From Chloroflexota bacterium (lineage in GTDB: Bacteria; Chloroflexota; Anaerolineae; Anaerolineales; UBA11858), in assembly GCA_016865865.1 (NCBI GenBank), contig VGOC01000005.1, positions 1,194-65,193 of the forward strand: DNA of 64,000 bases, written 5' to 3'. The position numbers were made by a program, and so were the translations under genes. Of this stretch, positions 4,224 through 53,363 are shown piece after piece (position 1 is the stretch's first letter; each line of letters begins with the position of its first letter). The notes below the pieces were generated by a model. It was not told the DNA's origin and did not search any database. It saw only the letters and a list, made by a program, of their open reading frames with translations.

Positions 4224-4273
4224 AACGTAAAACGTGATGAGTGATTCACGCTTCACGTTTTACACTTTACACG
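4219..4273. repeat. Period-7 degenerate tandem repeat forming an imperfect palindrome (AAACGTG/CACGTTT family)
   Basis: Reads cgtaaaa|cgtaaaa|cgtgatg|agtgatt|cacgctt|cacgttt|tacactt|tacacgg. The left half is the inverted complement of the right half. Confidence 0.75.
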
Positions 4274-4281
4274 GAAATCAA

Positions 4282-5139
4282 ATGACAGAGACTTCTCTTA
4301 CGACGAAAGCGGCCCCAGAGACGATCCTCCTGCGCCCCTCGCGCGGCTGGGCAGCCTTGAATTTAATGGATCTCTGGCGCTACAGAGAGTTGATCTACTT
4401 CCTCACCTGGCGCGATATCAAGGTGCTCTACAAACAGACTGTCCTAGGAGCCGCCTGGGCGATCTTGCGTCCCATCATTACGATGATCGTTTACGCGTTC
4501 ATTTTTGGGCAACTTGCCAACCTGGATTCTGAAGGAGTGCCGTATACGATCTTCACTTATGTGGCCTTGTTGCCCTGGCAGCTTTTCTCGAGAGCGATGA
4601 GCGAAACCGGGCGCTCGATGGTATCGAACCGCAATATGATTACGAAAATCTATTTTCCGCGTCTGGTCATCCCAGTTTCAACGATACTCAGCGGCATGGT
4701 GGATTTCTTTATCGCTTTTGTGATTTTGATCGGCATGATGTTCTATTACCAGATCAGCCCAACCCTTGCTATCTGGACTTTGCCGCTCTTCTTGTTATTG
4801 ACCTTGATAACAGCCTTAGGTGTTGGATTGTGGTTTTCTTCTTTGAATGTGCTGTACCGTGACATTGGTTATATCCTGCCATTTCTGACCGAGGTATGGA
4901 AGTACCTCACCCCGGTAGCCTATTCGGCTGGATATATCACGGGCGCGTGGAAAATCATCTATTCGATCAATCCGATGGCCGGGGTCGTGGAAGGATTCCG
5001 TTGGGCTTTATTAGGCATCGAACTGGACTCGTCCGCCTCGCTCACGATGTCCATTTCGATCGGTGTAGCCATTGTTGTGCTTATCAGCGGTTTATTCTAC
5101 TTCCGCCGCATGGAGCGAACTTTCGCGGATATGGTGTAG
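4282..5139 (+). CDS. wzm: ABC-2 type polysaccharide/O-antigen export permease
   Basis: Six hydrophobic spans and the typical N-terminal LWRYRELIYFLTWRDIKVLYKQTVLGAAWAILRP. The ATG at 4282 is preferred because 4234-4281 lies inside the heptamer repeat. Confidence 0.88.
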   Translation: MTETSLTTKAAPETILLRPSRGWAALNLMDLWRYRELIYFLTWRDIKVLYKQTVLGAAWAILRPIITMIVYAFIFGQLANLDSEGVPYTIFTYVALLPWQLFSRAMSETGRSMVSNRNMITKIYFPRLVIPVSTILSGMVDFFIAFVILIGMMFYYQISPTLAIWTLPLFLLLTLITALGVGLWFSSLNVLYRDIGYILPFLTEVWKYLTPVAYSAGYITGAWKIIYSINPMAGVVEGFRWALLGIELDSSASLTMSISIGVAIVVLISGLFYFRRMERTFADMV

Positions 5140-5172
5140 AGTTTTCACGTATCACGTTTCGCGTTTCGAGTT

Positions 5173-6459
5173 ATGACGGATTTAGCGATAAGAGTAAATG
5201 ACCTCGGCAAACAATACCGCATTGGGTTGGCTCCTGAGCGATATAAGACGCTGCGCGATTCTATCGTTGATGTGGTGACCTGGCCGCTTCAACGAATCCG
5301 CCGTGGGCTGGCTCCCTCGGGTGAGGACTATGCTGATACCATCTGGGCATTGCGCGATGTATCCTTCGAGGTCGAGCAAGGGAAAGTATTGGGGGTGATT
5401 GGGCGGAATGGGGCGGGCAAGAGCACGCTGCTCAAGATATTGTCGCGCGTTACCGAACCCACCGAAGGAGAAGTCGAGATCCGCGGCCGGGTTGGATCGC
5501 TCCTGGAAGTCGGCACAGGCTTTCACCCGGAATTGACTGGGCGCGAAAATATCTATCTCAATGGCGCTATTCTAGGGATGAAGCGCTCCGAGATAGACGG
5601 CAAATTCGATGAGATCGTTGACTTCTCCGGCGTCGAGCAATTTATAGATACCCCGGTCAAACGTTACTCTAGCGGCATGTATCTACGATTGGCTTTTGCG
5701 GTTGCAGCGCATTTGGAACCGGAAATCCTGGTGGTGGACGAGGTGCTGGCCGTCGGCGATGCCGAGTTTCAACGAAAATGCCTGGGGAAAATGAGCGACG
5801 TCGCTCAGGAAGGCCGCACAGTGCTATTCGTTAGCCATGATATGTCCGCGATTCTGCGCCTTACCGAAGAGGCCATCGTGCTGGATGATGGTCAACTGGT
5901 TTACCGCGCCCCTACCGTCGCGGCGGTGGATTATTATATGGTATCCGGATTCTCCGAGGCGGGGGAGCGCGTCTGGGATGATGATGAGATTCCAGAATCG
6001 GCTGCGCCCTTCCACCCCCTGGCTATGCGCGTGTGTAACTCGAATGGGCAGAATGTTGACGTAGTTCGCTCGACTGAGCCGATCAGCTTAGAGGTCGAGT
6101 ATCAACTGGCAGAACCCATCCACGGGCTGCGCGTCGGCCTCTACCTGATGAGCGCGCGCGGCGAATATGTCCTGACATCCTTCGATACCGATGAGCCGGA
6201 GCAGTATAACAACTATGGCGTCCGCCCTGCCGGTCACTTCCTCAGCCGTTGTACGATCCCGCCGGATTTGTTGAATGAAGGCCGATATACAGTGGGGGTG
6301 AACGCCAGCTCCTTCCGGGTGAAACGCTATTTCATGGATGAACGGGCTTTGACCTTCACAGTTGACGGCATGGGCGCGCCAGGGAAACAGTGGGCCGAAA
6401 CGCGCATGGGGCTGGTGAGGCCGCGCTTGAATTGGCAGATCGAGGCGGTAGAGAAATGA
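5173..6459 (+). CDS. wzt: Polysaccharide ABC exporter ATPase with a C-terminal Wzt_C-like carbohydrate-binding extension
   Basis: Walker [15 protein letters not shown], signature YSSGM and Walker [13 protein letters not shown]. About 170 extra C-terminal residues follow (..[30 protein letters not shown]..), which look beta-rich. Confidence 0.88.
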
Positions 6460-8081
6460 CGATGATTGGAAGCGAATCCTTGAAGAAGATTCTTGGCGAG
6501 TTTCCTGTTACCGCAGATCTCTACTGGCGGATTATGCAGCAGGCTGATCCTCCAGTGGGGGGGTACTTGCTTGACGACGTTCGGAAGCATCTGCCAACCT
6601 GGCTGGATCAAGCGCGGGCGGCAGAGGTGAAAAGCAATCACCCCAAACGCGTGCTGGTTTTCAGTGTGCTTCGATATTGGCTGGAACATAGCCTGCTCAT
6701 GAGCCTGGCACTGGTGGCTTTTGGACATGAGGTCACGCTGGCCTATTTACCGTATGCTCACTGGAAAAGACCCATCAATCGCTTCGACCTGCGCCGTCAG
6801 GATCTTTATATCAAAAGCATCATCAAGCAAATCGAACCCTTCGTAAGATTGGTCTCGATGCTGGATGCTCCGAAAGCCGACAGGCTGCCTGAAGCGATTA
6901 GCGACCAAATGGCGGCGGCAGCTTTCCGCGATACTCAATACAGTATGCTGCGGGAAGACATCGACACCGATGGCGAGATCTACCGATTGCGCCAGGAGCG
7001 CAACAACGATTATGCCCTGCGAATGTTGGCCTGGATGCAAAATGAACGCCCTGACGTGGTAGTCGTCCCGAATGGCAGCATCCTCGAATTTGGTATTACC
7101 TATCGTCTTGCCCGTTACCTAAACATCCCCGTGACGACCTACGAGTTTGGGGAACAAAACCACCGCATGTGGATGGCACAGAATAATGATGTGATGCGCC
7201 AGGACACCTCGGATTTATGGAATGCGCGCGGCGAGATACCATTGACTGACGTAGAAAAGGAACTGATCTATAATCTATTTTCGTCTCGCCAGGGAGCCAG
7301 TCTGTGGCATACCTTTGCCCGGCGATGGCAGGATGCGCCCAAAATCGGCGGCAGCGCAATACGGCAGGAGCTGGGCCTCGATTTGCGGCCTCTGGCATTA
7401 ATCCCGGCCAATGTGTTAGGCGATAGTCTGGTCCTCGGCCGGCAGCTATTTAGCGAGAGCAATACGGAGTGGTTGAAGCGCACAGTCGAATTCTTTATCG
7501 AGCATCCTGAGGCCCAGTTGGTTATTCGTGTTCACCCGGGAGAGCGCATAGGTTGGGGGTCCTCGGTCTATGAAATCTTAGTGCAACATTTTCAGGAATT
7601 CCCAGAAAATATCCACCTGCTCCCTGCGGAATCGAGCGTCAATACGTATGATTTGGTGGATGCCGCTGACTTTGGGCTGGTCTTCACCACAACCACCGGG
7701 ATGGAGATGGCCATGATCGGAAAACCAGTAATCGTTACGGGCCACACGCACTATCGCGGCAAGGGGTTCACGATTGATCCGAATACCTGGAAAGAGTACT
7801 TCGAAGCCTTGAAACAGGTGCTGTATGACCCCAAGGCTCACACTTTATCTGAAGGTCAGATCGAATTATCCTGGCGCTATGCTTATCGCTTTTTCTTCGA
7901 ATATCCTCAGCCTTTCCCCTGGCGAGTCCCCTATCTTTGGGAGAGCTTGAAGGAATGGAGCATGGCGCGGGTTCTCAGCCCAGAAGGACAGGCCCAATTT
8001 GGGAATACTTTTCGTTATCTGGTTGGCGAGCCGATTGATTGGGCTCGAAGTTATGTAGAAGGTCGGCTGACGAATGAGTGA
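6456..8081 (+). CDS. Capsule_synth-like (KpsC/KpsS-type) GT-B protein; candidate CMP-ulosonic-acid transferase
   Basis: Motifs [23 protein letters not shown] and [25 protein letters not shown] match the Q.xDS / HP / G.EA.l.gkPv pattern of KpsS/KpsC. The ATG at 6456 overlaps the wzt stop (ATGA). Confidence 0.6.
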
Positions 8082-9093: not shown

Positions 9094-9996
9094 ATGGTGG
9101 CCATGGCCGATATAAAACAGCATGTGCGAGAGTTCTACGACCAGGTTGGTTGGCTGGAAGTCAGCGAGGGAGTTTATCAAAACGCTCGCTATGAGGATTT
9201 ACGGCCAGTTTCACGTGAATATATTCATCGTTGCCATCTACGTGTGAGCCGCCACATCAAACCCGAGGGGCGCTACTTCCTCGACGCAGGTTCTGGGCCG
9301 ATTCAATACCCGGAGTATTTGGAGTATTCCAAGGGATACAATTACCGGGTCTGCGCTGATATTTCCTATGTAGCCCTGCAGGAAGCCAGGAAAAGGGTTG
9401 GCGATCACGGCCTGTTTGTGGTCGCCGATGTAGCTAATTTGCCCTTCGCTCCTGAAACTTTCGAGGGCGTTGTCTCATTGCATACGATCCATCATCTGCC
9501 GCAAGAAGAGCATGTTCAGGCATACAGAGAGTTATACCGGGTATTGTCCCCCGGATGTTCGGCGTCGGTTGTCAACGGTTGGGGCGATGCGCTGATCCCG
9601 CGCCTGTTATCGAATCCCATGCGCTGGACGAACCGCTTGCTGGGGGTTGTCAGGCGTTTATTGGGCATTACGCCCACAGAACATCCTGCAAAACCTGTCA
9701 GTATGTCTGATGATAACAAACCCACAAGCACCTTTGTGCGCAAAGATAGCGCCGATTGGTTGAAGGAGCAGCTCGCTACGTTGATGCCAATCGAAATCGT
9801 TGTCTGGCGGGGGATCAGTGTAAAGCACTTGCGCACCTTCATCCATCAGGGATGGGGTGGATGCTATGTGTTACGGTTTTTATTCTGGCTAGAGGAACGT
9901 TTTCCTCATTTCTTCGGAGAGAAAGGTCAATACCCCTTGGTTGTGATCCGAAAAATGAGCTACACAGATGAGTTCACTGAAAGAACTCATGAATGA
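9094..9996 (+). CDS. Class I SAM-dependent methyltransferase
   Basis: Motif I FLDAGSGPIQ, plus ..VADVANLPFAPETFEGVVSLHTIHHL (Methyltransf_11-like). Confidence 0.8.
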   Translation: MVAMADIKQHVREFYDQVGWLEVSEGVYQNARYEDLRPVSREYIHRCHLRVSRHIKPEGRYFLDAGSGPIQYPEYLEYSKGYNYRVCADISYVALQEARKRVGDHGLFVVADVANLPFAPETFEGVVSLHTIHHLPQEEHVQAYRELYRVLSPGCSASVVNGWGDALIPRLLSNPMRWTNRLLGVVRRLLGITPTEHPAKPVSMSDDNKPTSTFVRKDSADWLKEQLATLMPIEIVVWRGISVKHLRTFIHQGWGGCYVLRFLFWLEERFPHFFGEKGQYPLVVIRKMSYTDEFTERTHE

Positions 9997-11019
9997 ATGG
10001 AGTTGCATATGAATTGGAAAGATAAAACTATTCTCGTCACAGGCGGAACCGGGTCCTTTGGAAAAGCATTTTCCAGGATTATGTTAGAGGAATACCAGCC
10101 GGCTAAGTTGATTGTATTTAGCCGGGATGAACTCAAGCAGCACGAAATGAGGGTTTCTGGTTTCGACTACCCCAATATCCGATATTTTATCGGCGACGTT
10201 CGCGATCTACCACGATTGAAGCGCGCCATGCAGGGTGTGGATATCGTCGTCCATGCAGCCGCTCTGAAACAGGTGCCAGCCTGTGAATATAACCCCATGG
10301 AGGCAGTAAAGACCAACATCCTTGGCAGCAGCAACGTGGTTGATGCTGCTCTAGATACTGGGGTTAAAAAAGTTATGGCCTTGAGCACCGACAAGGCCGT
10401 CAGCCCGGTCAATTTGTATGGGGCCACGAAGCTCGCTGCCGAAAAACTAGTGATTCAAAGTAATGCCTACGCAGGAAAGTACGAAACACGTCTGAGTTGT
10501 GTGCGCTATGGCAATGTTGTTGGCAGTCGGGGAAGCGTTGTCCCGGTTTTTCTGAGTCAACGGGCCAATAACGGCAAACTTACCATAACCGACAAACGGA
10601 TGACGCGCTTCTGGCTATCGCTTGAGCAAGGAGTCAGGTTCGTGATCAAGAGCATTGAACACATGTTAGGTGGGGAAGTATTCATTCCTAAGATACCTAG
10701 CATGAAAGTGGTTGATCTGGCTAAAGTCATCGCCCCTGATGCAGAGATAGACATCATCGGTATTCGGCCAGGCGAGAAATTGCATGAGATGCTGATCTCG
10801 CGGGATGAATCTCGCTCGACTATCGAAATGGATGATATGTTCGTCGTTCAGCCGGTCGAAGCCTTCTGGTTTGGTGGAAAATGGAGTGAGAAGGGAAAAC
10901 CTGTTCCTGATGGTTTCCGCTATTCCAGCGCCGAGAATCCAGAGTGGCTTAATGTCGAACAGATCAGAGAGATGATCAAACCTTTCGAGGAGGCGTTTGC
11001 GCAAGGAAAGCTAGCTTAA
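9997..11019 (+). CDS. UDP-GlcNAc 4,6-dehydratase of the PseB/FnlA/CapE type
   Basis: Has KTILVTGGTGSFGKAF, LIVFSRDELKQHEM, GDVRD and NLYGATKLAAEKL. ATG at 10009 is an alternative start. Confidence 0.85.
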   Translation: MELHMNWKDKTILVTGGTGSFGKAFSRIMLEEYQPAKLIVFSRDELKQHEMRVSGFDYPNIRYFIGDVRDLPRLKRAMQGVDIVVHAAALKQVPACEYNPMEAVKTNILGSSNVVDAALDTGVKKVMALSTDKAVSPVNLYGATKLAAEKLVIQSNAYAGKYETRLSCVRYGNVVGSRGSVVPVFLSQRANNGKLTITDKRMTRFWLSLEQGVRFVIKSIEHMLGGEVFIPKIPSMKVVDLAKVIAPDAEIDIIGIRPGEKLHEMLISRDESRSTIEMDDMFVVQPVEAFWFGGKWSEKGKPVPDGFRYSSAENPEWLNVEQIREMIKPFEEAFAQGKLA

Positions 11020-11108
11020 GTATGTTTGCCTTGTATACCTTGCTTACCTGCAGGCTCGATGTGACCTCTGGTTGAGTGAATTGGGTAAATAGTGAATACA
11101 AGGTAAAG

Positions 11109-12029
11109 ATGATGCGAATACTGATAACAGGTACAGGCGGCCTTTTGGGAAGCAACCTCGCTTTAGAAGCCGCCAGCCGCCACACAGTTTTCGGGGTGGA
11201 TAGAAGTTGTCCTCAGAAAACGACTGCTTTCACCCCTATGGTGGCCGACTTGCTAGACCCGGGCGTGGTGGAACGTATCCTGGATGATACTCAACCCGAT
11301 TGGGTGATCCATTGCGCTGCTCAGGCGAACGTGGATGCCTGTGAGCATGATCCAGAGAATGCCCGGAAATTGAATACAGAACTGCCGCGAAAACTGGCGC
11401 ATCATGTCGCCAGGGGCGGAGCGCGCATGTTGCATGTATCCACGGATGCGGTTTTCGATGGACAGAAGGGTGAATATGGCGAGGAAGATCCTCCAAATCC
11501 CCTCAATATTTATGCGCAAACAAAATTAGCTGGGGAATATGGAGTTCTCGAAACATCGCTCGATGCCATCGTAGCCCGGATAAATATCTTTGGGTGGAGT
11601 CCGTCAGGCAGGCGTAGCTTAGCTGAATTTTTCTATAACAACCTGGAAGCCGGTAACCCGATCAAGGGCTTCGTGGATGTTTTATTCTGCCCCTTGTTAG
11701 TGAATGATATAGCCGACCTGTTTCTAAAGATGCTAGATAGGGGATTGAGCGGGTTATATCATGTGGTCAGCAGCGAGAGCATCAGTAAATATGATTTCGG
11801 TGTTGCTATTGCGAGAAGATTCGGCTATGACCCTGATCTCATTACGCCAGTTTCTGTTAGCCAGGCTGGTCTTAAAGCGATCCGCTCTACCAACCTCACC
11901 CTGCGCGTGGATAAACTCATCCACGATTTGGGGGTAGTTCCTCCGGGTTTGTCCCCAGGGATAGATCGGTTTTACACGTTTTATCAACAGGGCTATCCAC
12001 AAATGATACGAACCTTGTGTGCAGAATAA
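11109..12029 (+). CDS. RmlD-substrate-binding-domain reductase (dTDP-4-dehydrorhamnose reductase / FnlB/WbjC-like)
   Basis: Has MMRILITGTGGLLGSNL and YAQTKLAGE. The ATG at 11109 is preferred over GTG at 11076. Confidence 0.75.
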   Translation: MMRILITGTGGLLGSNLALEAASRHTVFGVDRSCPQKTTAFTPMVADLLDPGVVERILDDTQPDWVIHCAAQANVDACEHDPENARKLNTELPRKLAHHVARGGARMLHVSTDAVFDGQKGEYGEEDPPNPLNIYAQTKLAGEYGVLETSLDAIVARINIFGWSPSGRRSLAEFFYNNLEAGNPIKGFVDVLFCPLLVNDIADLFLKMLDRGLSGLYHVVSSESISKYDFGVAIARRFGYDPDLITPVSVSQAGLKAIRSTNLTLRVDKLIHDLGVVPPGLSPGIDRFYTFYQQGYPQMIRTLCAE

Positions 12030-12048
12030 GAATGCAGAGGTCAAAGAT

Positions 12049-13131
12049 ATGAATATTCCCTCCCCTGAAATTACCATAGCTGACCGGAAAGTCGGCCTCA
12101 ATCACCCCACCTATTTCATCGCTGACATCGCCGCCAACCACGATGGCGATCTGGAGCGCGCCAGGTTTCTCATCCGGCTGGCGAAAGAAGCCGGCGCCGA
12201 GGCTGCCAAATTCCAGAATTTCCGCGCCCCCAATATCGTCTCCGATTATGGGTTCAAGTCGTTGGGCGGCCAGCTCTCTCATCAGGCCAGTTGGAAGAAA
12301 AGCGTGTTCGAGGTGTATAGAGATGCCTCGATCCCCTTCGAGTGGACGCCGATCCTCAAAGAGACATGTGACGATGTGGGAATTCACTATTTCTCCTCCC
12401 CATACGACTACGACGCCATTGATATGCTGGCCCCATATGTGCCAGCCTATAAAGCCGGCTCTGGGTTGATGTCGTGGCCTGATGGGCTGGTGCGCATGGC
12501 AAAACTCGGCAAACCCTTGCTGATCGCAACGGGCGCGGCGGATATCAGCGATGTGGTGCGCGCCATGCGGGCGGTGAGGCCGGTCAACGATCAAATTGTA
12601 CTCATGCAGTGCAACACCAATTACACCGCTGCCGACTCGAATTACGATCACCTCAATCTCAATGTGCTCAGGACATATGCCGCCATGTTCCCGGATGTAG
12701 TGTTGGGACTCTCGGATCACACCCACAGCCCGGCGCCGATCGTCGGCGCGATAGCCTTGGGGGCGCGCGTCATCGAACGGCACTTCACCGACGATAACGA
12801 CCGAGAAGGCCCCGACCACAAATTTGCCATGAACCCCGAGAATTGGGCTGAGATGGTTCATCAAGTCCGCACACTCGAGCGCGCATTGGGATCATTCGAC
12901 AAATTCGTCACCGGCAGCGAGCAAGAAACTTACGTGCTCCAACGCCGATGTCTGCGGGCTGCCCGGGAGATCAAGGCTGGCGAAACCATCGCTGAGGATA
13001 TGGTCGAACCCCTGCGCCCTGCCTCTCCAGGCGCGATCATGTCCTGGGAGCTGGACAGACTCGTTGGAAGGAAGGCCCTGGTGGACATGCCGTATGGGAT
13101 GGATATGCGGTGGGAGAATATTGGGGCATGA
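12049..13131 (+). CDS. NeuB/PseI/LegI-family ulosonic (nonulosonic) acid synthase with a SAF domain
   Basis: Has PTYFIADIAANHDGDLERARFLIRLAKEAGAEAAKFQNF, VIERHFT and a C-terminal REIKAGETI (SAF). The ATG at 12049 has a gagg RBS. Confidence 0.85.
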   Translation: MNIPSPEITIADRKVGLNHPTYFIADIAANHDGDLERARFLIRLAKEAGAEAAKFQNFRAPNIVSDYGFKSLGGQLSHQASWKKSVFEVYRDASIPFEWTPILKETCDDVGIHYFSSPYDYDAIDMLAPYVPAYKAGSGLMSWPDGLVRMAKLGKPLLIATGAADISDVVRAMRAVRPVNDQIVLMQCNTNYTAADSNYDHLNLNVLRTYAAMFPDVVLGLSDHTHSPAPIVGAIALGARVIERHFTDDNDREGPDHKFAMNPENWAEMVHQVRTLERALGSFDKFVTGSEQETYVLQRRCLRAAREIKAGETIAEDMVEPLRPASPGAIMSWELDRLVGRKALVDMPYGMDMRWENIGA

Positions 13132-13203
13132 AACGTAAAAAGGTAAACCGTAGAAAGTGATTTCAGTTTCTCGATTACATCTCACGTTTTACGTTTATTC
13201 CAT

Positions 13204-14361
13204 ATGCGTGTCCTTTACTTTACCAGAGACTACACCACCCACGATCACCGGTACCTCTCCGCTTTAGCCAAGACGGAGTACGAAGTTGGATATTTGCGGC
13301 TCGAACATGGGGGGCACGATTTGGATGATCGGCCACTGCCCTCGAAAATCGAGCAAATTTCCTGGATAGGAGGGCGAACGCCTGCCAGGTTGAGTGATGG
13401 GCCGCGGCTGCTTGCCGGTCTTCGAGGGGTGATTCGCTCTTTCAAGCCTGATCTGATTCAAGCCGGCCCCTTGCAGCGTTCTGCTTTCCTGGCAACATTG
13501 ACCGGCTTTCACCCCCTGGTGAGCATGTCGTGGGGTTATGATTTGCTGATGGATGTCAATCGAAACCGTTGGTGGGAGTGGGCTACTCGATATACGCTTC
13601 GACGGAGCGACGCCCTGGTGGGGGACTGTGATACCATTCGTAATCTTGCCATTCGATATGGCATGGCGCCAGAGCGGATCGTTACCTTCCCGTGGGGCGC
13701 GAATATCGAGAAATATTCGCCCGGTGACGATGGCGGGCTGCGCGAACGTTTAGGGTGGGGCGAGGATGCTTTTGTGCTGCTCTCCACCCGAGGTTGGGCG
13801 CCGATCTATGGCATTGATGTCCTGGCCCATGCTTTTATCAGGGCTGCGCGCCAGCGCCCGGAACTACGCCTGCTGATGTTGGGGAATGGGCCGCTGGCGC
13901 CACAAATCCGCCAGATTTTTATGCAGGCGGATTTCCTCGACCGGGTACATTTTCCCGGGCAAATGAACCAGAAGGATCTGCCGAATTATTATCGGGCGGC
14001 AGATTTATACATCAGCGCATCTCACAGCGATGGCGCGTCTATTTCTTTATTGGAAGCCCTGGCCAGTGGCAAGCCTGTACTGCTCTCTGATATTCCTGGG
14101 AATCAGGAGTGGGTATCCCCCTCGTCCCCGGCTCCCGCTTTGCGCGCCGTTGGCGTCTCTCAGGGAGAGGGGAGTCGGGTCGGCTGGTTGTTTCGGGACG
14201 GGGATGTGTCCTCTCTCACCGAAGGCATTCTCGGGGTCGTGGATCATCGGGAGCAGTTACCCGCTATGGGCGTAGCAGCCCGCCAATTGGCAGAATCACG
14301 CGCGAATTGGGAAGAGAACTTCCCAAAACTGTTCGAGGCTTATCGAATCGCTTTTACGTGA
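13204..14361 (+). CDS. GT4-family glycosyltransferase carrying an about 22-aa in-frame insertion
   Basis: ASHSDGASISLLEALASGKPVLLSDIPGNQEWV....GWLFRDGD shows the EX7E region interrupted by SPSSPAPALRAVGVSQGEGSRV. Confidence 0.85.
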   Translation: MRVLYFTRDYTTHDHRYLSALAKTEYEVGYLRLEHGGHDLDDRPLPSKIEQISWIGGRTPARLSDGPRLLAGLRGVIRSFKPDLIQAGPLQRSAFLATLTGFHPLVSMSWGYDLLMDVNRNRWWEWATRYTLRRSDALVGDCDTIRNLAIRYGMAPERIVTFPWGANIEKYSPGDDGGLRERLGWGEDAFVLLSTRGWAPIYGIDVLAHAFIRAARQRPELRLLMLGNGPLAPQIRQIFMQADFLDRVHFPGQMNQKDLPNYYRAADLYISASHSDGASISLLEALASGKPVLLSDIPGNQEWVSPSSPAPALRAVGVSQGEGSRVGWLFRDGDVSSLTEGILGVVDHREQLPAMGVAARQLAESRANWEENFPKLFEAYRIAFT

Positions 14362-14389
14362 TATTTTTAGCCATCGCATGTATGGAGGC

Positions 14390-14502
14390 AACTACTCAGC
14401 CAAACGGAGAAATTCCCGAAAAAAGGGTGTGCGTGGGGGTGCTGCGCACCCCCACGCACACCCTTTTTTCGGGCTAATCCGTTCGATGACTGAGCAGTTA
14501 CG
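14390..14502. mobile_element. 113-nt MITE-like palindromic element, copy A
   Basis: Identical to 61536-61648 except for the 3-nt loop. It has a perfect 28-bp stem, cccgaaaaaagggtgtgcgtgggggtgc / gcacccccacgcacacccttttttcggg, and imperfect outer inverted repeats aact.ctcag. Confidence 0.75.
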
Positions 14503-14516
14503 TATGGAGTGCCGTT

Positions 14517-15287
14517 ATGCTTACGAAAAACGATCTCATCGAAGAATTTCAAACTATTGGTGTAGAAGCCGGCGACTCCTTGCTGGTTCACAGCTCGTAC
14601 AAGTCGTTCGGCGGCGTTGAGGGCGGCCCGCAGATTGTCATAGATGCCCTGTTGGATGTCCTCGGCGACGAAGGCACGCTCATCATGCCGACCTTCAATT
14701 TCGATTTCTGCACAGGAGAACCCTGGGATGCGCGCGAAACGCCTTCCCACATGGGGGTCATCACCGAACTGGTTCGCAAAGACCCTCGCAGCCGCCGCGT
14801 TTTCCACCCCATCTATTCATTTGCTATCATCGGAAAACAGGCTGAATTCTTGACCAGAGAACGCTATAAGAGCAGTTATGGGCGCAATTCATTGTTTGGT
14901 AAACTGCGTGAACTCGACGGCAAGATCATGGTGATCGGTTTGCGTTATAACGACAGCATGACCTTTTTCCATCATGTCGAAGAACTGGAAGGGGTGGATT
15001 ATCGCTATCTAAAAACTTTCACCGGCATGGTCACAGATGAAGATGGCAACACCTATGAAGATTCCTTCCAGATGCTGGTGCGCGATATCGAAAAAGGCGT
15101 GGAAACGATGGTTGACCCTATGGGCGCATTGGCGGAAGAAGCTGGCGTCATCGCCGTGCGCCAGGTCGGTCAGGCGAAAGTCTCTCTCATGAAGGCCAAC
15201 GCGATCTACGACTTCACTGCCCGCGAAATGCGCCGCGACCCCAAATTACTCTATCGCATCGCCTCTCCCGACCAACCAGCCAACTAA
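14517..15287 (+). CDS. AAC(3)-family (Antibiotic_NAT fold) N-acetyltransferase; a sugar N-acetyltransferase is the likely role here
   Basis: LIEEFQTIGVEAGDSLLVHSSYKSFGGVEGGPQIVIDALLDVLGDEGTLIMPTFNF is the typical AAC(3) N-terminus. Confidence 0.8.
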   Translation: MLTKNDLIEEFQTIGVEAGDSLLVHSSYKSFGGVEGGPQIVIDALLDVLGDEGTLIMPTFNFDFCTGEPWDARETPSHMGVITELVRKDPRSRRVFHPIYSFAIIGKQAEFLTRERYKSSYGRNSLFGKLRELDGKIMVIGLRYNDSMTFFHHVEELEGVDYRYLKTFTGMVTDEDGNTYEDSFQMLVRDIEKGVETMVDPMGALAEEAGVIAVRQVGQAKVSLMKANAIYDFTAREMRRDPKLLYRIASPDQPAN

Positions 15288-15303
15288 CAAACTAACCAAC
15301 CCC

Positions 15304-16620
15304 ATGCAACTAAAACCTCTCCTCGAAAGAATCTACCCCCTTCATCGCACACTGGCCTCTGATGGCCTGGATGAAGCCTTGCGTATTGTAGGTGAGGCTA
15401 TGCCCGCCTCGGCGGGTTATGCTATCGAAACCTACAGGCCGGGCGATTCCATCTGGACATGGCGGGTGCCAGAACGCTATGTGGTTCATGATGCATCTCT
15501 CGAAACGGATCGTGGTCAGCGAGTGATCAATTTTGCTCACAACCCGCTTCACATCGTTTCATATTCGCTGCCCGTAGACAGAACACTCACCTGGGACGAA
15601 CTGGAGCCGCATCTTTTCTATTGCGAAGAGCGTCCCTGGGCGATCCCCTGGCACTTCAATTACTACCAGCGAGATTGGGGTTTTTGTCTCTCGAAAGAGG
15701 TATTCGACAATCTCCCGCGGGATGTCCGGTATCGGGCGGTGATCCGCTCGGAGTTTCTTGCAGATCCCAACGATGGCGGCTTTCGTGTGGGGGCGGGAGT
15801 GTTGCACCCCGAGGGTGGGCCTGTTTCCGGGGTTGGAGAATTGCTGATCTCGGCGCATATCTGCCATCCTATGCAGGCCAATGATGACGCCGCTGGGGTG
15901 GTCACAGCGGTCGAAGTTGCCCGGCGGCTGGCCGAAAATCCCTTGCCTCCCGGCTCGATGAGTGTGCGCTTCTGGTTTGGCCCTGAAACCATCGGCACGA
16001 TCGCTTATCTGGCTCACAACGAAGACCTGATCCCCAGGTTGAAGGGCGGCGTCTTCATCGAAATGACCGGCAACAATAACACCATCGCCTGGCACCATAC
16101 CCGTCAGCATACTCATTTATTAGATCGAATTACGCATTACGTTTTACGCAATATGGATCACATCGAGCGCAACTTTGCCGACTTCCCCCCCAATGACGAA
16201 CGCGTCATCAACGGTCCCGGCGTCAATGTTCCCTGCATTTCGATCAATCGCTGGCCTTACGACGAATACCACACCACCGATGACAACCCCGGCATCATCC
16301 ACGAAGAAATGCTCCAGAGCGCAGCCGATATTGTCGAGGAGATCGTGCGCATCTACGCATCCAATTTCATCCCCAAACGAAAATTCCGCGGCCCGCTTTT
16401 CTTATCGGGCAATGATCTCTGGGTGGATTGGCGGGAGAATTTCGATCTCAACCGCTCGTATGAAAAAATCATGATGCGGTTCGAGGGCCAGCACAGCCTC
16501 TTCGATATCGCCGAGGAGGTGGGGTTGGATTACTGGGTCGTGCGTGCGTATGTCGAAAAATATCGAGTGAAGGATTTTATCGAAGCGCTTCCTATCCCCA
16601 GCGAGGCGCCAGATTTTTAA
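15304..16620 (+). CDS. Aminopeptidase-like (M28-like, DUF4910-type) domain protein with a C-terminal winged helix
   Basis: Size and layout fit, with a C-terminal HSLFDIAEEVGLDYWVVRAYVEKY. This family recurs in polysaccharide loci and its function is not established. It contains a heptamer-repeat segment at 16127-16154 (RITHYVLRN). Confidence 0.6.
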   Translation: MQLKPLLERIYPLHRTLASDGLDEALRIVGEAMPASAGYAIETYRPGDSIWTWRVPERYVVHDASLETDRGQRVINFAHNPLHIVSYSLPVDRTLTWDELEPHLFYCEERPWAIPWHFNYYQRDWGFCLSKEVFDNLPRDVRYRAVIRSEFLADPNDGGFRVGAGVLHPEGGPVSGVGELLISAHICHPMQANDDAAGVVTAVEVARRLAENPLPPGSMSVRFWFGPETIGTIAYLAHNEDLIPRLKGGVFIEMTGNNNTIAWHHTRQHTHLLDRITHYVLRNMDHIERNFADFPPNDERVINGPGVNVPCISINRWPYDEYHTTDDNPGIIHEEMLQSAADIVEEIVRIYASNFIPKRKFRGPLFLSGNDLWVDWRENFDLNRSYEKIMMRFEGQHSLFDIAEEVGLDYWVVRAYVEKYRVKDFIEALPIPSEAPDF

Positions 16621-17483
16621 TGTCACATATTGTCGCCATCATTCAAGCTCGCATGAGCGCCTCGCGCCTGCCAGATAAAGTGCTTTTGGATATTGGCGGG
16701 CGACCGATGCTTCAATGGGTGGTCGAGAGAACGTGCCGTGCGAAAACAATCACCCACGTGGTTGTCGCAACAACGACTGATCCATCCGATGATCCTGTAG
16801 CGGAGTTTTGCCAATCCCAAAACATCGCTTTTACCCGCGGCAGCGTGCATGATGTCTTAGATCGCTATTACCTAGCTGCCAGGAAGTTTAAAGCGGGTGT
16901 AGTAGTACGCATCACCGCGGACTGCCCATTGGTCGACCCCGCTCTGATCGATCAGGCTGTCTGCGCTTTATTTACCCCTCCTAACCAGGCGCTAAATACT
17001 GACCACTGTTTACTGACCACTGTCCACTGGGACTTCATCGCCAACCGCCTGCCACAACCCTGGTGGCGCACTTACCCCCTCGGGTTGGATACCGAAGTAT
17101 TCACCTTCGACGCCCTCGAACGGGCGTGGAGGGAAGCCACAGAACTACACCAACGCGAACACGTCACGCCATTTTTCTACGAGGGCATTCCTGTCGAAGA
17201 TTTTCGTTTTTCATCAAACAAAACATCGTTTGTCAAATCCGAATCGCCGCGTGGATTCAAGGTCGGATTGCTTCATCACCATGAAGAACTGGGCCATCAC
17301 CGCTGGACGGTAGATACTCCTGAAGACTTGAAGTTAGTGCGCGAAATCGCGGCGCGGTTTTCCGACGATCACTTTACCTGGTTGGATGTCTTGGCGCTTA
17401 TCGAACGGGAGCCTGGTTTAGCGCAAATCAACGCCGCTGTGCAGCACAAGACTCACTTAGATGTAGATGAACGACCTCGCTGA
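16620..17483 (+). CDS. SpsF-like cytidylyltransferase (CTP_transf_3 family)
   Basis: Has IVAIIQARMSASRLPDKVLLDIGGRPMLQWVVER and RITADCPLVDP. The ATG overlaps the upstream TAA. A period-7 repeat insertion lies at 16997-17031. Confidence 0.8.
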   Translation: MSHIVAIIQARMSASRLPDKVLLDIGGRPMLQWVVERTCRAKTITHVVVATTTDPSDDPVAEFCQSQNIAFTRGSVHDVLDRYYLAARKFKAGVVVRITADCPLVDPALIDQAVCALFTPPNQALNTDHCLLTTVHWDFIANRLPQPWWRTYPLGLDTEVFTFDALERAWREATELHQREHVTPFFYEGIPVEDFRFSSNKTSFVKSESPRGFKVGLLHHHEELGHHRWTVDTPEDLKLVREIAARFSDDHFTWLDVLALIEREPGLAQINAAVQHKTHLDVDERPR

Positions 17484-18399
17484 GAAGATTCCATTCCTGA
17501 CAATCTTCACCGCCCCAAAACCCTTTGCAGACCCTCATATCAACATTATCCAGCGAAATGCGATTCGATCCTGGCAGTGTTTAAGCGGCGATGTCGAGGT
17601 GTTGTTGATCGGCGAAGAAGAAGGTCTGGCCGAGGCGGCAGACGAATTTGACATCCAGCATTTGCCGGATGTCGCCAGGAACGAGTGGGGCACGCCGCTG
17701 GTGAGTTCGATTTTTACGTTGGCCCGAGAGAATAGCCATGCGCCGTTGTTGGCATACGTTAATGCCGATATATTATTGACGCCGGATTTTCTAGAAGTCG
17801 CACGTCAGGTTGCCGAACAGACCGAGAAGTTCTTGATTGTAGGGCGGCGTTGGGATCTGGATGTCCGTTGGGAATTGGCATTCAGCGCAAACTGGGTATC
17901 CGGACTCCGCAAAGAAGTTCGAAGCAAAGGAAAACTGCATGCTCCTTCCGGAAGCGATTATTTCGTTTTCCCCCGGCATGTGTTTACCGAGATCCCTGAC
18001 TTCGCCATTGGGCGGGCAGGCTGGGATAATTGGATGATCTATCATGGTTTACGGCAAGGCTGGCCCGTGATAGATGCATCAGGTTCTCTGATGATTGTCC
18101 ATCAGGTTCATGATTACGGACATCTGCCCGACGGTCAAGCGCATTATGACCTCGAAGAGACGAAAATCAACGCCGAATTGGGAGGGGGAATGCAGAACAT
18201 GTATATGGTTCTCGATGCCAGTCATGAATTCGTCCATGGTCGCGTTCGCAAGGCGCGCTTTCGCCCGGTGGGTTTGGTGCGCAAGCTTGAGCGGTTGTTC
18301 TATTCTCCAGAACAGCAAGGTGTACGCTGGCTACTGACGCGTCGCCTGCGCAGCTTGCGCAAAAAATTGGTTTCGTCGAGCAAGGTGAAGGATGCCTGA
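17467..18399 (+). CDS. Hypothetical protein, possibly a GT-A-like nucleotide-sugar transferase
   Basis: The ORF is translationally coupled on both sides, and ..LLAYVNADILLTPDF.. is a DxD-like region. No family was confidently recognised. Confidence 0.35.
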   Translation: MNDLAEKIPFLTIFTAPKPFADPHINIIQRNAIRSWQCLSGDVEVLLIGEEEGLAEAADEFDIQHLPDVARNEWGTPLVSSIFTLARENSHAPLLAYVNADILLTPDFLEVARQVAEQTEKFLIVGRRWDLDVRWELAFSANWVSGLRKEVRSKGKLHAPSGSDYFVFPRHVFTEIPDFAIGRAGWDNWMIYHGLRQGWPVIDASGSLMIVHQVHDYGHLPDGQAHYDLEETKINAELGGGMQNMYMVLDASHEFVHGRVRKARFRPVGLVRKLERLFYSPEQQGVRWLLTRRLRSLRKKLVSSSKVKDA

Positions 18400-32403: not shown

Positions 32404-34229
<1,826 letters not shown>

Positions 34230-43049: not shown

Positions 43050-43718
43050 ATGTCTCGACTTATTGCCCTCGTCCCCATGCGGCACAGTTCCCAACGGGTG
43101 CCGGGAAAAAATTATCGCCTGTTGGGGGGGAAGCCGCTGTTTCACTACATCATTGCCACACTGCTCGAGGTTCCCCAGATCGCTGAAGTGGTAGTGAATA
43201 CCGACAGCCCAGAGATTGCCGAAGGTTTGGGGAAATCCTTCCCGAGCGTGCGGGTGCTGGAACGACCCGCGCATTTGCAAGCCCCTGAAGTGCCGATGAA
43301 TGAAATCCTGGCTTACGACACATCCCAGATCGAAGCTGATTTCTATTTGCAAACCCACAGCACAAATCCCCTGTTGTGCGCCGAGACGATATCGAAAGCA
43401 ATCAGAGTATTTTTGGAGCAGTATCCGGCCCATGATTCTCTTTTCTCGGTGACAAGTCTAAAGACCCGCCTGTACGATCAACTGGGGCGGGCGATCAACC
43501 ATAATCCGGCTTACCTGCTGCAAACCCAGGATTTACCCCCGGTTTACGAGGAGAATTCCTGCATCTACATCTTTACGAAAGAAACCTTGCTGGCGCGCCG
43601 AAACCGCCTGGGGGAACGGCCTCTGATGTTCGAGATCGCCGCCGTGGAGGCCTGGGATATCGATGAGGAACTAGATTTCGAGATAGTGGATTTCTTGATG
43701 AGGAGAAAAGGTGATTAG
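43050..43718 (+). CDS. CTP_transf_3-family cytidylyltransferase (third in the window)
   Basis: Has LIALVPMRHSSQRVPGKNYRLLGGKPLFHYIIATL and VVNTDS. Confidence 0.78.
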   Translation: MSRLIALVPMRHSSQRVPGKNYRLLGGKPLFHYIIATLLEVPQIAEVVVNTDSPEIAEGLGKSFPSVRVLERPAHLQAPEVPMNEILAYDTSQIEADFYLQTHSTNPLLCAETISKAIRVFLEQYPAHDSLFSVTSLKTRLYDQLGRAINHNPAYLLQTQDLPPVYEENSCIYIFTKETLLARRNRLGERPLMFEIAAVEAWDIDEELDFEIVDFLMRRKGD

Positions 43719-45571: not shown

Positions 45572-46399
45572 ATGGCAGATTTAAGAAAAGCTATCAAAGG
45601 ATTGTTTCCTCCAGCGGTATGGGAGCCAATCAGCGAGGCGCGTTACACCATTCAGTATGCAGCCCAGTGGCCGGCGGCCACATTACACCCCTGGCGGCGG
45701 GAGAGCATCCGACGGCTGGCCGAATGGAAGGACAGATACAAAGGGGAGCGTTGTTTCATCATCGGCAATGGGCCAAGCCTGACGAACACCGACGTTTCGA
45801 AACTGGCGGGTGAGTATACCTTTGGGATGAACCGCATATATCTGGCCTTCCCCGAGTGGGGCTTCAAGACCACTTTTCTCGTCTCGGTCAACGACCTGGT
45901 TATCGAACAGTGCGTGGACGATTTTATCGCCCTGGATATTCCCAAATTCTTCTCCTGGCGCTCACGTCGGTTCTTTACCCAACCACCAATCCCTAATCAC
46001 CAATCACCGATCTTTCTCCACACCACCTACACCGGCCCAAAATTCGCTGCCGACGCCCGCGGCCGCCTGTGGGAGGGCGCGACTGTGACCTATGTCTGCC
46101 TGCAACTGGCCTTCTATCTGGGTTTCGAAAAGGTCATCTTGATCGGCGTGGATCATAGCTTTTCCAGCCAGGGCAAGCCGAATACGACTGTGGTCTCCTC
46201 TGGCGATGACCCGAATCATTTCGACCCCGGCTACTTCGGCAAGGGCTTCCGCTGGCAACTGCCTGATCTGGACACCTCAGAACGCGCCTATCGGATGGCA
46301 AGGGAGGTTTTCAAGTCGGCCAGGCGCCAGGTTCTGGATGCCACGATTGGGGGGAAATTGACTGTATTCCCAAAAATTGACTACGATACGTTGTTTTAG
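45572..46399 (+). CDS. DUF115 / MptE-like (Maf-type) protein; candidate CMP-nonulosonate transferase
   Basis: Has CFIIGNGPSLTNTDVSKL and VILIGVDHSF. The GNGPSL motif is shared with Campylobacter Maf proteins and GT42 sialyltransferases. A heptamer repeat segment lies at 45979-46013. Confidence 0.6.
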   Translation: MADLRKAIKGLFPPAVWEPISEARYTIQYAAQWPAATLHPWRRESIRRLAEWKDRYKGERCFIIGNGPSLTNTDVSKLAGEYTFGMNRIYLAFPEWGFKTTFLVSVNDLVIEQCVDDFIALDIPKFFSWRSRRFFTQPPIPNHQSPIFLHTTYTGPKFAADARGRLWEGATVTYVCLQLAFYLGFEKVILIGVDHSFSSQGKPNTTVVSSGDDPNHFDPGYFGKGFRWQLPDLDTSERAYRMAREVFKSARRQVLDATIGGKLTVFPKIDYDTLF

Positions 46400-49530: not shown

Positions 49531-49548
49531 GGTTATTTGCCCTACGCG

Positions 49549-53360: not shown

Positions 53361-53363
53361 GTA

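What the first reader, a model, noticed from the sequence alone, without database searches (positions are those of the whole stretch)
9997..17483. Ulosonic-acid module 1 lacks a recognisable aminotransferase and hydrolysing epimerase
The gene order is a PseB/FnlA-type 4,6-dehydratase, an RmlD/FnlB-type reductase, a NeuB-type synthase, a GT4, an AAC(3)-type acetyltransferase, an aminopeptidase-like protein and an SpsF-type cytidylyltransferase.

Canonical pseudaminic and legionaminic acid pathways need a DegT/PseC-type PLP aminotransferase, a GNAT acetyltransferase and a PseG/NeuC-type hydrolase. None of these is recognisable anywhere in the window.

A dehydratase plus reductase would give a 6-deoxy-HexNAc, as in the FnlA/FnlB or WbjB/WbjC routes. 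Condensing that sugar with PEP would give a 9-deoxy mono-amino nonulosonic acid, which is an unusual product.
Basis: inference. Interest (0 to 1): 0.6.

Follow-up and report, generated by a model that had tools for sequence, protein, structure and literature searches.

The report
Amine-free nonulosonic acid gene cassette
This block of genes in an uncultured Anaerolineales bacterium looks like the pseudaminic-acid (bacterial sialic-acid-like sugar) pathway with a reductase where the amino-adding enzymes normally sit; the same core genes lie in the O-antigen locus of Fusobacterium nucleatum ATCC 25586, the one strain known to make the one-nitrogen, 9-deoxy sugar acid this route predicts, but no enzyme has been tested and the step that frees the sugar from UDP has no assigned gene.

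Summary
The genes at 9997-17483 are PseB, an RmlD-like reductase, a divergent NeuB-family synthase, a GT4, an AAC(3)-fold acetyltransferase, a DUF4910/M28-like protein and a CTP_transf_3 cytidylyltransferase. The window has no DegT, PseG or NeuC.

- The core PseB, RmlD-like, NeuB, GT4 and cytidylyltransferase genes are syntenic in 80 of 80 fetched Anaerolineales loci, and none carries DegT, PseG or NeuC.
- Orthologs of the synthase occur in about 98 of 151 sampled genomes of the order.
- Three closed genomes with the cassette lack PseG and have only a WecB-type epimerase.
- This NeuB clade has an RmlD-like gene directly upstream in 63/80 and 68/82 loci from many phyla, including archaea.
- The same module lies in the O-antigen locus of F. 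nucleatum ATCC 25586. That O-antigen contains L-6dAltNAc and a 5-amino-3,5,9-trideoxy-nonulosonic acid.

The product class is therefore known chemically (one case, 2017), but I found no description of its genes. AAC(3) and DUF4910 are accessory, present in roughly half of the loci. The UDP-release step is unassigned.

This scan has flagged the same cassette before on other genomes. I class it as a new variant of a known kind, resting on genomics only.

The parts
9997..11019 (+). PseB, the inverting UDP-GlcNAc 4,6-dehydratase
   Evidence: TIGR03589 scores 493 bits, above the cut-off of 407.75. Found in 67 of 80 related Anaerolineales loci at 69-88% identity. It is 51% identical to the PseB of the F. 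nucleatum ATCC 25586 locus.
11076..12029 (+). RmlD-like extended SDR, the proposed C4 ketoreductase (probable start 11112)
   Evidence: PF04321 at 200 bits; TIGR01214 at 187 bits, below its cut-off. The GxxGxxG, STD and YxxTK motifs are conserved. It overlaps the NeuB start by 11 nt. An RmlD-like gene is the immediate upstream neighbour of the clade NeuB in 63/80 and 68/82 diverse loci.
12019..13131 (+). NeuB-family synthase of a distinct clade, neither NeuB nor PseI equivalog
   Evidence: PF03102 at 212 bits, but below both equivalog cut-offs. Metal and PEP motifs are retained. Clade signature motifs are QCNTNY and HFTDD. The clade has SH-aLRT support of 98 and is separate from the genome's own PseI. 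It is 52% identical to the F. nucleatum ATCC 25586 protein.
13204..14361 (+). GT4 (GT-B fold): either a glycosyltransferase or a candidate UDP-sugar hydrolase
   Evidence: Pfam Glycos_transf_1 and Glyco_trans_4. AF2 model pLDDT 92, with best folds MshA, BshA and SPS. Directly downstream of NeuB in 69 of 80 Anaerolineales loci. Elsewhere a GNAT or a small GT2 takes this position.
14517..15287 (+). AAC(3)-fold acetyltransferase, an accessory gene
   Evidence: PF02522 at 167 bits. Present in roughly half of the related loci.
15304..16620 (+). DUF4910/DUF2172/M28-like protein, an accessory gene
   Evidence: Pfam. Present in roughly half of the related loci, paired with AAC(3). The family is linked to modified-sugar loci in PMC4000134. 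It also follows the module on an unrelated metagenome contig.
16620..17483 (+). CTP_transf_3 cytidylyltransferase, the CMP-activation step
   Evidence: PF02348 at 119 bits; PseF equivalog not met. Found in 56 of 80 Anaerolineales loci and 65 of 82 diverse loci.
17467..18399 (+). Conserved 310-aa GT-A fold protein with no Pfam family
   Evidence: No family match. AF2 pLDDT 94; Foldseek matches GT-A transferases such as SpsA, K4CP and WrtF at TM about 0.45-0.5. Follows the cytidylyltransferase in 52 of 80 loci.
6390..8081 (+). KpsC/KpsS-like (Capsule_synth) protein, a conserved upstream neighbour and candidate ulosonic-acid transferase
   Evidence: PF05159. Present upstream of the cassette in most related loci.
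9094..9996 (+). SAM methyltransferase, a conserved upstream neighbour abutting PseB
   Evidence: PF08241. Syntenic in most related loci. No gap between it and PseB.

Best explanation
The cassette is a reductase-type variant of the pseudaminic-acid pathway. It most likely makes a CMP-activated 5-amino-3,5,9-trideoxy-non-2-ulosonic acid with a hydroxyl at C7, of the kind found in the F. nucleatum ATCC 25586 O-antigen. The sugar would serve the ABC-transporter-exported, sulfated polysaccharide encoded around it.

Proposed steps:
1. PseB converts UDP-GlcNAc to UDP-2-acetamido-2,6-dideoxy-beta-L-arabino-hexos-4-ulose. The family assignment is shown; the activity is inferred.
2. The RmlD-like SDR reduces C4 to give UDP-6-deoxy-L-AltNAc, in place of the PseC and PseH steps (inferred).
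3. UDP is removed by an enzyme not yet identified (inferred). In Anaerolineales the GT4 directly after the synthase is the leading candidate, followed by the GT-A protein at 17467.
4. The clade-specific NeuB condenses the free 6-deoxy-hexosamine with PEP (inferred).
5. The CTP_transf_3 enzyme makes the CMP-sugar (inferred).
6. A KpsC/S-like or GT-A enzyme transfers it (inferred).

The AAC(3)-fold and DUF4910/M28-like pair is an optional tailoring unit. It may exchange the N5 acyl group (speculative).
For: -
- Synteny of PseB, RmlD-like, NeuB, GT4 and the cytidylyltransferase holds in the 80 fetched Anaerolineales loci, out of at least 591 matching stretches. None of the 80 has DegT, PseG or NeuC.
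- Orthologs at 57% identity or more occur in about 98 of 151 sampled genomes of the order.
- Five near-complete cassette-bearing genomes have no PseG. In the four examined, the Epimerase_2 gene tested (the best or only match) is WecB-type.
- The module recurs in unrelated settings: a Lysinibacillus flagellin-glycosylation island with Maf, and metagenome polysaccharide loci.
- The RmlD-like gene is the direct upstream neighbour of the clade NeuB in 63/80 and 68/82 loci across phyla. PseG and NeuC each appear in only 2 of 82.
- F. nucleatum ATCC 25586 (AE009951.2) carries PseB (520 bits), RmlD-like, clade NeuB, a cytidylyltransferase domain and a GNAT. No DegT, PseG or NeuC lies within 10 kb either side.
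- The RmlD-like protein keeps the reductase catalytic motifs.
- The window NeuB groups with the F. nucleatum and Lysinibacillus proteins, apart from canonical paralogs.
Against: - No enzyme of the module has been assayed, and no chemistry exists for any Chloroflexota.
- No gene for UDP release is identified. The gene after NeuB varies (GNAT in 53, small GT2 in 12, GT4 in 5 of 82 loci), so GT4 cannot be a universal hydrolase.
- GT4 resembles ordinary retaining transferases. It shows only a generic GT-B similarity to this genome's PseG (hhalign probability 12%).
- The RmlD-like and NeuB pair persists in 25 of 82 loci that also carry a DegT, one of them a true PseC. The F. nucleatum locus also holds an AKR and a short-chain SDR. 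The RmlD-like enzyme might therefore have a role other than C4 reduction.
- The window proteins are only 31-52% identical to the F. nucleatum ones, so stereochemistry and N-acyl groups may differ.
Confidence: 0.6

Rival explanations
1. The RmlD-like enzyme is not the replacement for PseC and PseH. Instead it works with the synthase. It might release the hexose from UDP by a transient-oxidation (GH4-like) mechanism, or it might reduce or epimerise the nine-carbon product. Another enzyme would then deal with the C4 keto group, or it would be handled later.
For: - The RmlD-like and NeuB genes are translationally coupled and adjacent across phyla, whether or not a DegT is present (25 of 82 loci have one, one a true PseC).
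- PseG and NeuC are missing from nearly all such loci and from closed genomes.
- The F. nucleatum locus has two further reductases, an AKR and an adh_short, directly after PseB.
- An earlier scan note reports RmlD-like::PseC fusions (not checked here).
Against: - The protein keeps the standard RmlD reductase motifs.
- The minimal Anaerolineales cassette has no other reductase for the 4-keto group.
- Six of seven module-adjacent DegTs tested are not PseC and may serve other sugars of the same glycan.
- To my knowledge no extended SDR is known to cleave a sugar nucleotide.
Confidence: 0.18
2. PseB and the RmlD-like enzyme only make a UDP-6-deoxy-L-HexNAc, which the GT4 puts into the polysaccharide (as in FnlA/WbvB-WbvR routes followed by a GT4). 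The NeuB and cytidylyltransferase pair uses an unrelated aldose such as ManNAc or mannose.
For: - Dehydratase, reductase and GT4 is a common layout in O-antigen loci (established knowledge of the fnl/wbj/wbv clusters).
- L-6dAltNAc is itself a residue of the F. nucleatum ATCC 25586 O-antigen.
- The GT4 looks like an ordinary retaining transferase.
- Synteny inside one glycan locus does not prove a shared pathway.
Against: - The RmlD-like gene directly precedes, and often overlaps, this specific NeuB clade in most loci from many phyla. These include a flagellin island that has no GT4.
- Closed cassette-bearing genomes have no NeuC-type or PseG gene to supply any free hexosamine.
- The trideoxy acid of F. 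nucleatum needs exactly such a 6-deoxy precursor.
- The two uses are not exclusive.
Confidence: 0.1
3. The cassette is an ordinary pseudaminic-acid pathway whose PseC, PseH and PseG are supplied in trans from other contigs of this fragmented genome.
For: The genome has 7 DegT genes, a PseG and a true PseI elsewhere. The assembly is in 168 contigs.
Against: - Those genes sit with their own PseB-like gene (C101) and their own PseI and cytidylyltransferase (C118).
- The window NeuB and cytidylyltransferase fail the PseI and PseF equivalog cut-offs.
- Three closed genomes with the cassette have no PseG at all.
- A conserved reductase would have no role in such a pathway.
Confidence: 0.04

Closest known systems
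CMP-pseudaminic acid pathway (PseB, PseC, PseH, PseG, PseI, PseF) of Campylobacter jejuni and Helicobacter pylori
   Same: It has the same first enzyme (a true PseB equivalog). It follows the same logic of dehydration, condensation with PEP by a NeuB-family synthase, and CMP activation by a CTP_transf_3 enzyme.
   Different: It has no PseC, PseH or PseG. An RmlD-like reductase is coupled to the synthase. The synthase and cytidylyltransferase fail the PseI and PseF equivalog cut-offs. The predicted product has a hydroxyl at C7, not an acylamino group.
[quoted passage not shown] 2017, cited in PMC13014188 and PMC7371886)
   Same: It has the same core of PseB, RmlD-like reductase, the same NeuB clade (52% identity) and a CTP_transf_3 domain. 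No DegT, PseG or NeuC lies nearby. Its product class is the one predicted for the window.
   Different: The Fusobacterium locus has a GNAT after the synthase where the window has a GT4. It adds an AKR, a short-chain SDR and a NeuB-like::cytidylyltransferase fusion, and it is Wzx/Wzy-type, not ABC-transporter-type. I found no published assignment of its genes to the sugar.
UDP-2-acetamido-2,6-dideoxy-L-hexose routes (FnlA/WbjB/WbvB dehydratase with the WbvR RmlD-like 4-reductase or FnlB/WbjC)
   Same: An inverting UDP-GlcNAc 4,6-dehydratase is followed by an SDR 4-reductase, and a GT4 often follows.
   Different: The window's dehydratase is a PseB equivalog (FnlA model 262 against a cut-off of 730). 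The reductase is coupled to a NeuB-family synthase and a cytidylyltransferase, which those routes lack.
Bacillus subtilis SpsE (PDB 1vli) and Neisseria meningitidis NeuB (1xuu)
   Same: These are the best solved relatives of the synthase (167 and 150 bits). They share the TIM-barrel plus SAF architecture and the metal and PEP motifs.
   Different: Identity is only about 30-35%. The window's clade has its own signature motifs (FIADIA.NHDG, QCNTNY, HFTDDN) and an insertion near residue 85.

Membership tests
PseB (TIGR03589, inverting UDP-GlcNAc 4,6-dehydratase) | Score above the curated equivalog cut-off over the full length | tested here: met
   493.3 bits against 407.75, covering residues 8-327 of 340.
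Canonical CMP-pseudaminic acid pathway | PseC-type DegT aminotransferase in the locus | tested here: not met
   No PF01041 match on the window's contig. No tblastn hit in 80 related loci.
Canonical CMP-pseudaminic acid pathway | PseG UDP-sugar hydrolase | tested here: not met
   The only TIGR03590 match in the genome is on contig C118. None in 80 related loci. None in 5 near-complete cassette-bearing genomes.
Canonical CMP-pseudaminic acid pathway | PseH GNAT N-acetyltransferase | tested here: not met
   No GNAT among the window ORFs scanned with Pfam. Two ORFs were not scanned. The acetyltransferase present is AAC(3)-fold and is optional in relatives.
PseI (TIGR03586) / NeuB_NnaB (TIGR03569) equivalogs | Score above the curated cut-off | tested here: not met
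   PseI 220 against 340; NeuB 239 against 400. The genome's own C118 paralog scores 499.5 for PseI.
NeuB family (PF03102) PEP-condensing synthases | NeuB TIM-barrel domain plus SAF domain, with metal and PEP-binding motifs (GLSDHT, ERHFT, GPDH, KFQ) | tested here: met
   PF03102 at 212 bits and SAF at 23 bits. The motifs are aligned to 1vli and 1xuu.
RmlD (TIGR01214, dTDP-4-dehydrorhamnose reductase) | Equivalog cut-off, and the catalytic S/T-D plus YxxxK motifs with an N-terminal GxxGxxG | tested here: inconclusive
   186.8 bits, below the cut-off of 224, so it is not an RmlD equivalog. The motifs TGxxGLLG, STD and YAxTK are conserved. The substrate was not tested.
PseF (TIGR03584) cytidylyltransferase | Equivalog cut-off | tested here: not met
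   21.7 bits against 205.7. It belongs to the general CTP_transf_3 family at 119 bits.
Reductase-type nonulosonic acid module (as in the F. nucleatum ATCC 25586 O-antigen locus) | PseB equivalog, an RmlD-like gene directly upstream of a NeuB of the QCNTNY/HFTDD clade, and a CTP_transf_3 gene, with no PseG or NeuC | tested here: met
   Window. F. nucleatum. Clade tree. Adjacency statistics.
Reductase-type nonulosonic acid module | Product is a 5-amino-3,5,9-trideoxy-non-2-ulosonic acid | not testable with these tools
   Chemistry exists only for F. nucleatum ATCC 25586. There is none for Chloroflexota.

The most novel reading that the evidence does not exclude
The module may contain a new way of freeing a 6-deoxy-hexosamine from UDP. 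Organisms with the module, including closed genomes, have neither PseG nor a NeuC-type enzyme. The step would be done either by the variable third gene (GT4, small GT2 or PseH-like GNAT) or by the RmlD-like SDR itself through transient oxidation. Either would be a new enzyme class for nonulosonic acid biosynthesis. In Anaerolineales the product would be a near-universal, undescribed envelope sugar.
Probability: 0.2. Interest if true: 0.8.

Novelty: new variant of a known kind. Interest (0 to 1): 0.62.

Why it matters
Nonulosonic acids shape how bacterial surfaces are recognised by phages, immune lectins such as Siglecs, and other cells. So far only three biosynthetic logics are established: the Neu, Leg and Pse routes.

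This cassette would be a fourth route that skips amination. It occurs in most sampled Anaerolineales, which are abundant in activated sludge, sediments and anaerobic digesters. It also occurs in many other phyla, including archaea.

It would give a genetic basis to the only reported trideoxy nonulosonic acid, found in F. nucleatum ATCC 25586, an oral and tumour-associated bacterium. It also exposes an unassigned step, UDP release without PseG or NeuC, that can be tested directly with a few purified enzymes.

Tried and rejected
**Searches that gave nothing useful**
- Papers on DUF4910, nonulosonic acid in Chloroflexi or Anaerolinea, and PseB with a 4-reductase gave no description of this pathway.
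- A search for '5-acetamido ... trideoxy non-2-ulosonic' found no natural example. The F. nucleatum structure only turned up when searched by name.
- Searching the RmlD-like protein in the 5.8-billion-protein set returned only generic names.

**Tests of hydrolase candidates**
- hhalign of the GT-A protein family against a small GT2 found downstream of NeuB elsewhere showed no relation.
- hhalign of the GT4 family against this genome's PseG gave only a weak, generic C-terminal GT-B match (probability 12%).
- The idea that the GT4 is a universal PseG substitute is rejected, because most non-Chloroflexota modules have a GNAT or a small GT2 at that position.
- The idea that module-adjacent DegTs are PseC is rejected for 6 of the 7 tested.

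**Reaching the F. nucleatum genome**
- Among 22 Fusobacterium species-representative genomes, only one has the ortholog. It proved to be Fusobacterium sp. oral taxon 370 F0437, not ATCC 25586.
- The ATCC 25586 record was reached by protein look-up instead.
- A whole-genome search of ATCC 25586 for PseG and NeuC was not possible, because the record is not held.
- The oral taxon 370 draft has no PseG above the cut-off and no Epimerase_2.

**Tools and limits**
- The careful tree did not finish, so a quick IQ-TREE tree is reported.

Full report
**What is there**

The window is G000:C5:1194-65193 of a 3.25-Mb, 168-contig genome. Related loci place it in the Anaerolineales, phylum Chloroflexota.

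- PseB at 9997-11019 (TIGR03589, 493 bits, above the cut-off of 407.75; the FnlA model falls far below its cut-off).
- An RmlD_sub_bind SDR at 11076-12029 (TIGR01214, 187 bits against a cut-off of 224).
- A NeuB plus SAF synthase at 12019-13131, below both the NeuB (239/400) and PseI (220/340) equivalog cut-offs.
- A GT4 at 13204-14361.
- An AAC(3)-fold acetyltransferase at 14517-15287.
- A DUF4910/DUF2172/M28-like protein at 15304-16620.
- A CTP_transf_3 cytidylyltransferase at 16620-17483.

The genes abut or overlap. RmlD-like and NeuB overlap by 11 nt, and the cytidylyltransferase overlaps the next ORF by 17 nt. The one larger gap, 155 nt, holds a hairpin element.

The block lies inside a large polysaccharide locus. 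That locus encodes:
- Wzm/Wzt export components;
- sulfotransferases and PAPS synthesis;
- several GT2s and two KpsC/S-like proteins;
- a second NeuB, fused to a TIM barrel;
- three cytidylyltransferases in all.

**The missing enzymes**

Whole-genome family searches find no DegT, PseG or Epimerase_2 on the window's contig. These genes do exist elsewhere in the genome, but in their own sets:
- A true PseI (499.5 bits) with PseG and a cytidylyltransferase on C118.
- A PseB-like gene with a DegT on C101.
- A NeuB-like gene with a DegT and a cytidylyltransferase on C56.
- A NeuC-type epimerase with a DegT and a cytidylyltransferase on C43.

**Conservation in the order**

The synthase has relatives at 63-86% identity in at least 591 species-level genome records. 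The 80 best are all Anaerolineales or Chloroflexota.

In those loci the following order is kept: KpsC/S-like, methyltransferase, PseB, RmlD-like, NeuB, GT4, [AAC(3), DUF4910], cytidylyltransferase, 310-aa ORF, GT2. ORF-level counts out of 80 are PseB 67, RmlD-like 73, GT4 69, cytidylyltransferase 56 and the 310-aa ORF 52. These are lower bounds, because many contigs end inside the locus. AAC(3) and DUF4910 occur in roughly half, so they are accessory.

A tblastn search with this genome's seven DegTs, its PseG and both Epimerase_2 proteins found nothing in any of the 80 loci. Genes occasionally inserted between the core genes are unrelated: a PMT_2 protein, methyltransferases, and a HIT plus GDPD pair.

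Across 151 sampled genomes of the order, about 98 have an ortholog at 57% identity or more.

Five near-complete genomes carry the cassette, three of them single contigs.
- None has a PseG match.
- All have an Epimerase_2 gene. In the four examined, the gene tested (the best or only match) is WecB-type, the non-hydrolysing kind: TIGR00236 is above its cut-off and NeuC is far below.
- DegT genes exist but lie tens of kilobases or more from the cassette.

**The module outside Chloroflexota**

A search of cluster representatives found relatives of the synthase at 49-52% identity. Their contigs show the same PseB-like, RmlD-like, NeuB and CTP_transf_3 set in unrelated settings:
- a Lysinibacillus sp. 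A1 flagellin-glycosylation island beside a Maf (MptE-like) gene (organism from PMC4384132);
- two metagenomic polysaccharide loci;
- a contig where DUF4910 follows the module.

The clade has signature motifs. The hits come from many bacterial phyla and from archaea.

| Measure | 80 pattern-scan loci (8 kb) | 82 relatives of the Fusobacterium protein (13 kb) |
|---|---|---|
| RmlD-like directly upstream of NeuB | 63/80 | 68/82 |
| PseB present | 40/80 | 55/82 |
| Cytidylyltransferase present | 44/80 | 65/82 |
| PseG | 1/80 | 2/82 |
| NeuC | 0/80 | 2/82 |
| DegT | 15/80 | 25/82 |

In the second set, the gene directly downstream of NeuB is a GNAT in 53 loci, a small GT2 in 12 and a GT4 in 5.

Of seven module-adjacent DegTs tested, only one is a true PseC.

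A quick maximum-likelihood tree puts the window protein in a clade of 28 rows with SH-aLRT support of 98. The clade includes the Fusobacterium, Lysinibacillus and archaeal members. It is separate from this genome's PseI and its other paralogs.

**The chemical anchor**

From memory I recalled the O-antigen of F. nucleatum ATCC 25586. [quoted passage not shown] It is described as the single reported trideoxy nonulosonic acid (PMC13014188 and PMC7371886).

Earlier notes of this scan claim that the strain carries the same genes, so I tested this myself.
- A 16S probe gave Fusobacterium handles.
- Only one of 22 species representatives has the ortholog. It is Fusobacterium sp. oral taxon 370 F0437.
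- Its closest named relative, 96% identical, is a F. nucleatum protein.
- That exact protein is encoded in AE009951.2 and CP028101.1. AE009951 is the ATCC 25586 genome (PMC3237422).

The ATCC 25586 locus reads: GT2, EpsG-type polymerase, PseB (520 bits), AKR, short-chain SDR, a NeuB-like::CTP_transf_3 fusion, RmlD-like, the clade NeuB, GNAT, Wzx. No DegT, PseG or NeuC lies within 10 kb either side.

The window proteins are 51% (PseB), 31% (RmlD-like) and 52% (NeuB) identical to these.

The related oral taxon 370 draft genome has no PseG above the cut-off and no Epimerase_2 at all.

**Mechanism**

The most economical reading has these steps:
1. PseB makes the 4-keto-6-deoxy-L-altro intermediate.
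2. The RmlD-like enzyme reduces C4 to give UDP-6-deoxy-L-AltNAc. It keeps the GxxGxxG, STD and YxxTK motifs.
3. The free sugar is condensed with PEP by the clade NeuB.
4. The product is CMP-activated.

By carbon bookkeeping, hexose C2 becomes C5 of the acid, C4 becomes C7 and C6 becomes C9. The result is a 5-acylamino-3,5,9-trideoxy acid with a hydroxyl at C7. The gluco configuration reported for the Fusobacterium sugar differs from the manno configuration of Pse only at C4, the centre created by the condensation. This fits an altro-configured precursor. All of these steps are inferred from families, synteny and one structure; none has been assayed.

**The open step**

UDP release has no assigned enzyme.
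- The GT4 is a well-folded, ordinary-looking GT-B enzyme. Its best structural matches are MshA, BshA and sucrose-phosphate synthase.
- The 310-aa ORF is a GT-A fold protein with no Pfam family.
- Neither shows specific similarity to PseG or to the small GT2 of other lineages.
- The third gene of the triad varies among GNAT, small GT2 and GT4. The RmlD-like and NeuB pair also persists where a DegT is present. I therefore keep a rival in which the SDR has a role at or after the synthase step.

**Verdict**

The cassette is a widespread variant of a known kind of pathway and, to my searches, genetically undescribed. Its product class is known from one chemical structure.

The scan has reported the same cassette several times on other genomes. 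That neither raises nor lowers the score here.

Noticed in passing
window 14362-14516: The 155-nt gap between GT4 and the AAC(3) gene holds a long perfect GC-rich inverted repeat flanked by A and T runs. It looks like a MITE or a bidirectional terminator.
   Followed up: no
window 45572-46399: A 275-aa MptE-like (Maf/DUF115 family) protein lies near a third CTP_transf_3 gene (43050-43718), a 2-hydroxyacid dehydrogenase and an SDR. The Maf family is linked to nonulosonic-acid transfer onto flagellins, so this is a candidate transferase in a non-flagellar polysaccharide locus.
   Followed up: no
window 52632-54260: A ThaI-like restriction endonuclease and an N6/N4 DNA methylase sit in the lowest-GC stretch of the window (0.47), interrupting the polysaccharide locus.
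   Followed up: no
window 49537-51471: One ORF fuses a GT2 glycosyltransferase to a sulfotransferase (644 aa). The window holds at least four further sulfotransferase genes and a PAPS synthase (32502-34229), which suggests a heavily sulfated glycan.
   Followed up: no
window 61679-63424: A second Wzm/Wzt-like ABC-2 transporter pair lies at the end of the window, in addition to the pair at 4234-6459.
   Followed up: no
L045:6779-7972 (Candidatus Villigracilis affinis): A HIT-domain protein and a GDPD phosphodiesterase are inserted between the RmlD-like and NeuB genes in this relative. They are nucleotide and phosphodiester hydrolases placed at exactly the point where UDP removal is unassigned.
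   Followed up: partly
L364:7337-9112 (F. nucleatum ATCC 25586, CP028101.1): A 591-aa protein has Pfam NeuB and CTP_transf_3 hits but no NCBIfam match at E<=1e-15. In the older AE009951.2 annotation only a 259-aa cytidylyltransferase is called, so the N-terminal NeuB-like part may be degenerate or misannotated. It is extremely divergent in the tree (branch length about 10).
   Followed up: partly
G000 contigs C118, C101, C56, C43: Besides the two modules in the window, the genome encodes an apparently canonical Pse set split over short contigs (C118: cytidylyltransferase, PseG, PseI; C101: PseB-like plus DegT). It also has two further NeuB- or NeuC-containing sets, giving up to four or five nonulosonic-acid routes in a 3.2-Mb genome.
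   Followed up: partly
L288, L291, L292, L304, L305 (diverse loci): A recurrent DegT of about 396-409 aa sits next to the cytidylyltransferase and PseB genes of the module. It scores about 200 bits for both LegC and PseC, far below both cut-offs. It may be a separate aminotransferase subfamily tied to a more decorated version of the pathway, often with an aldo/keto reductase.
   Followed up: partly
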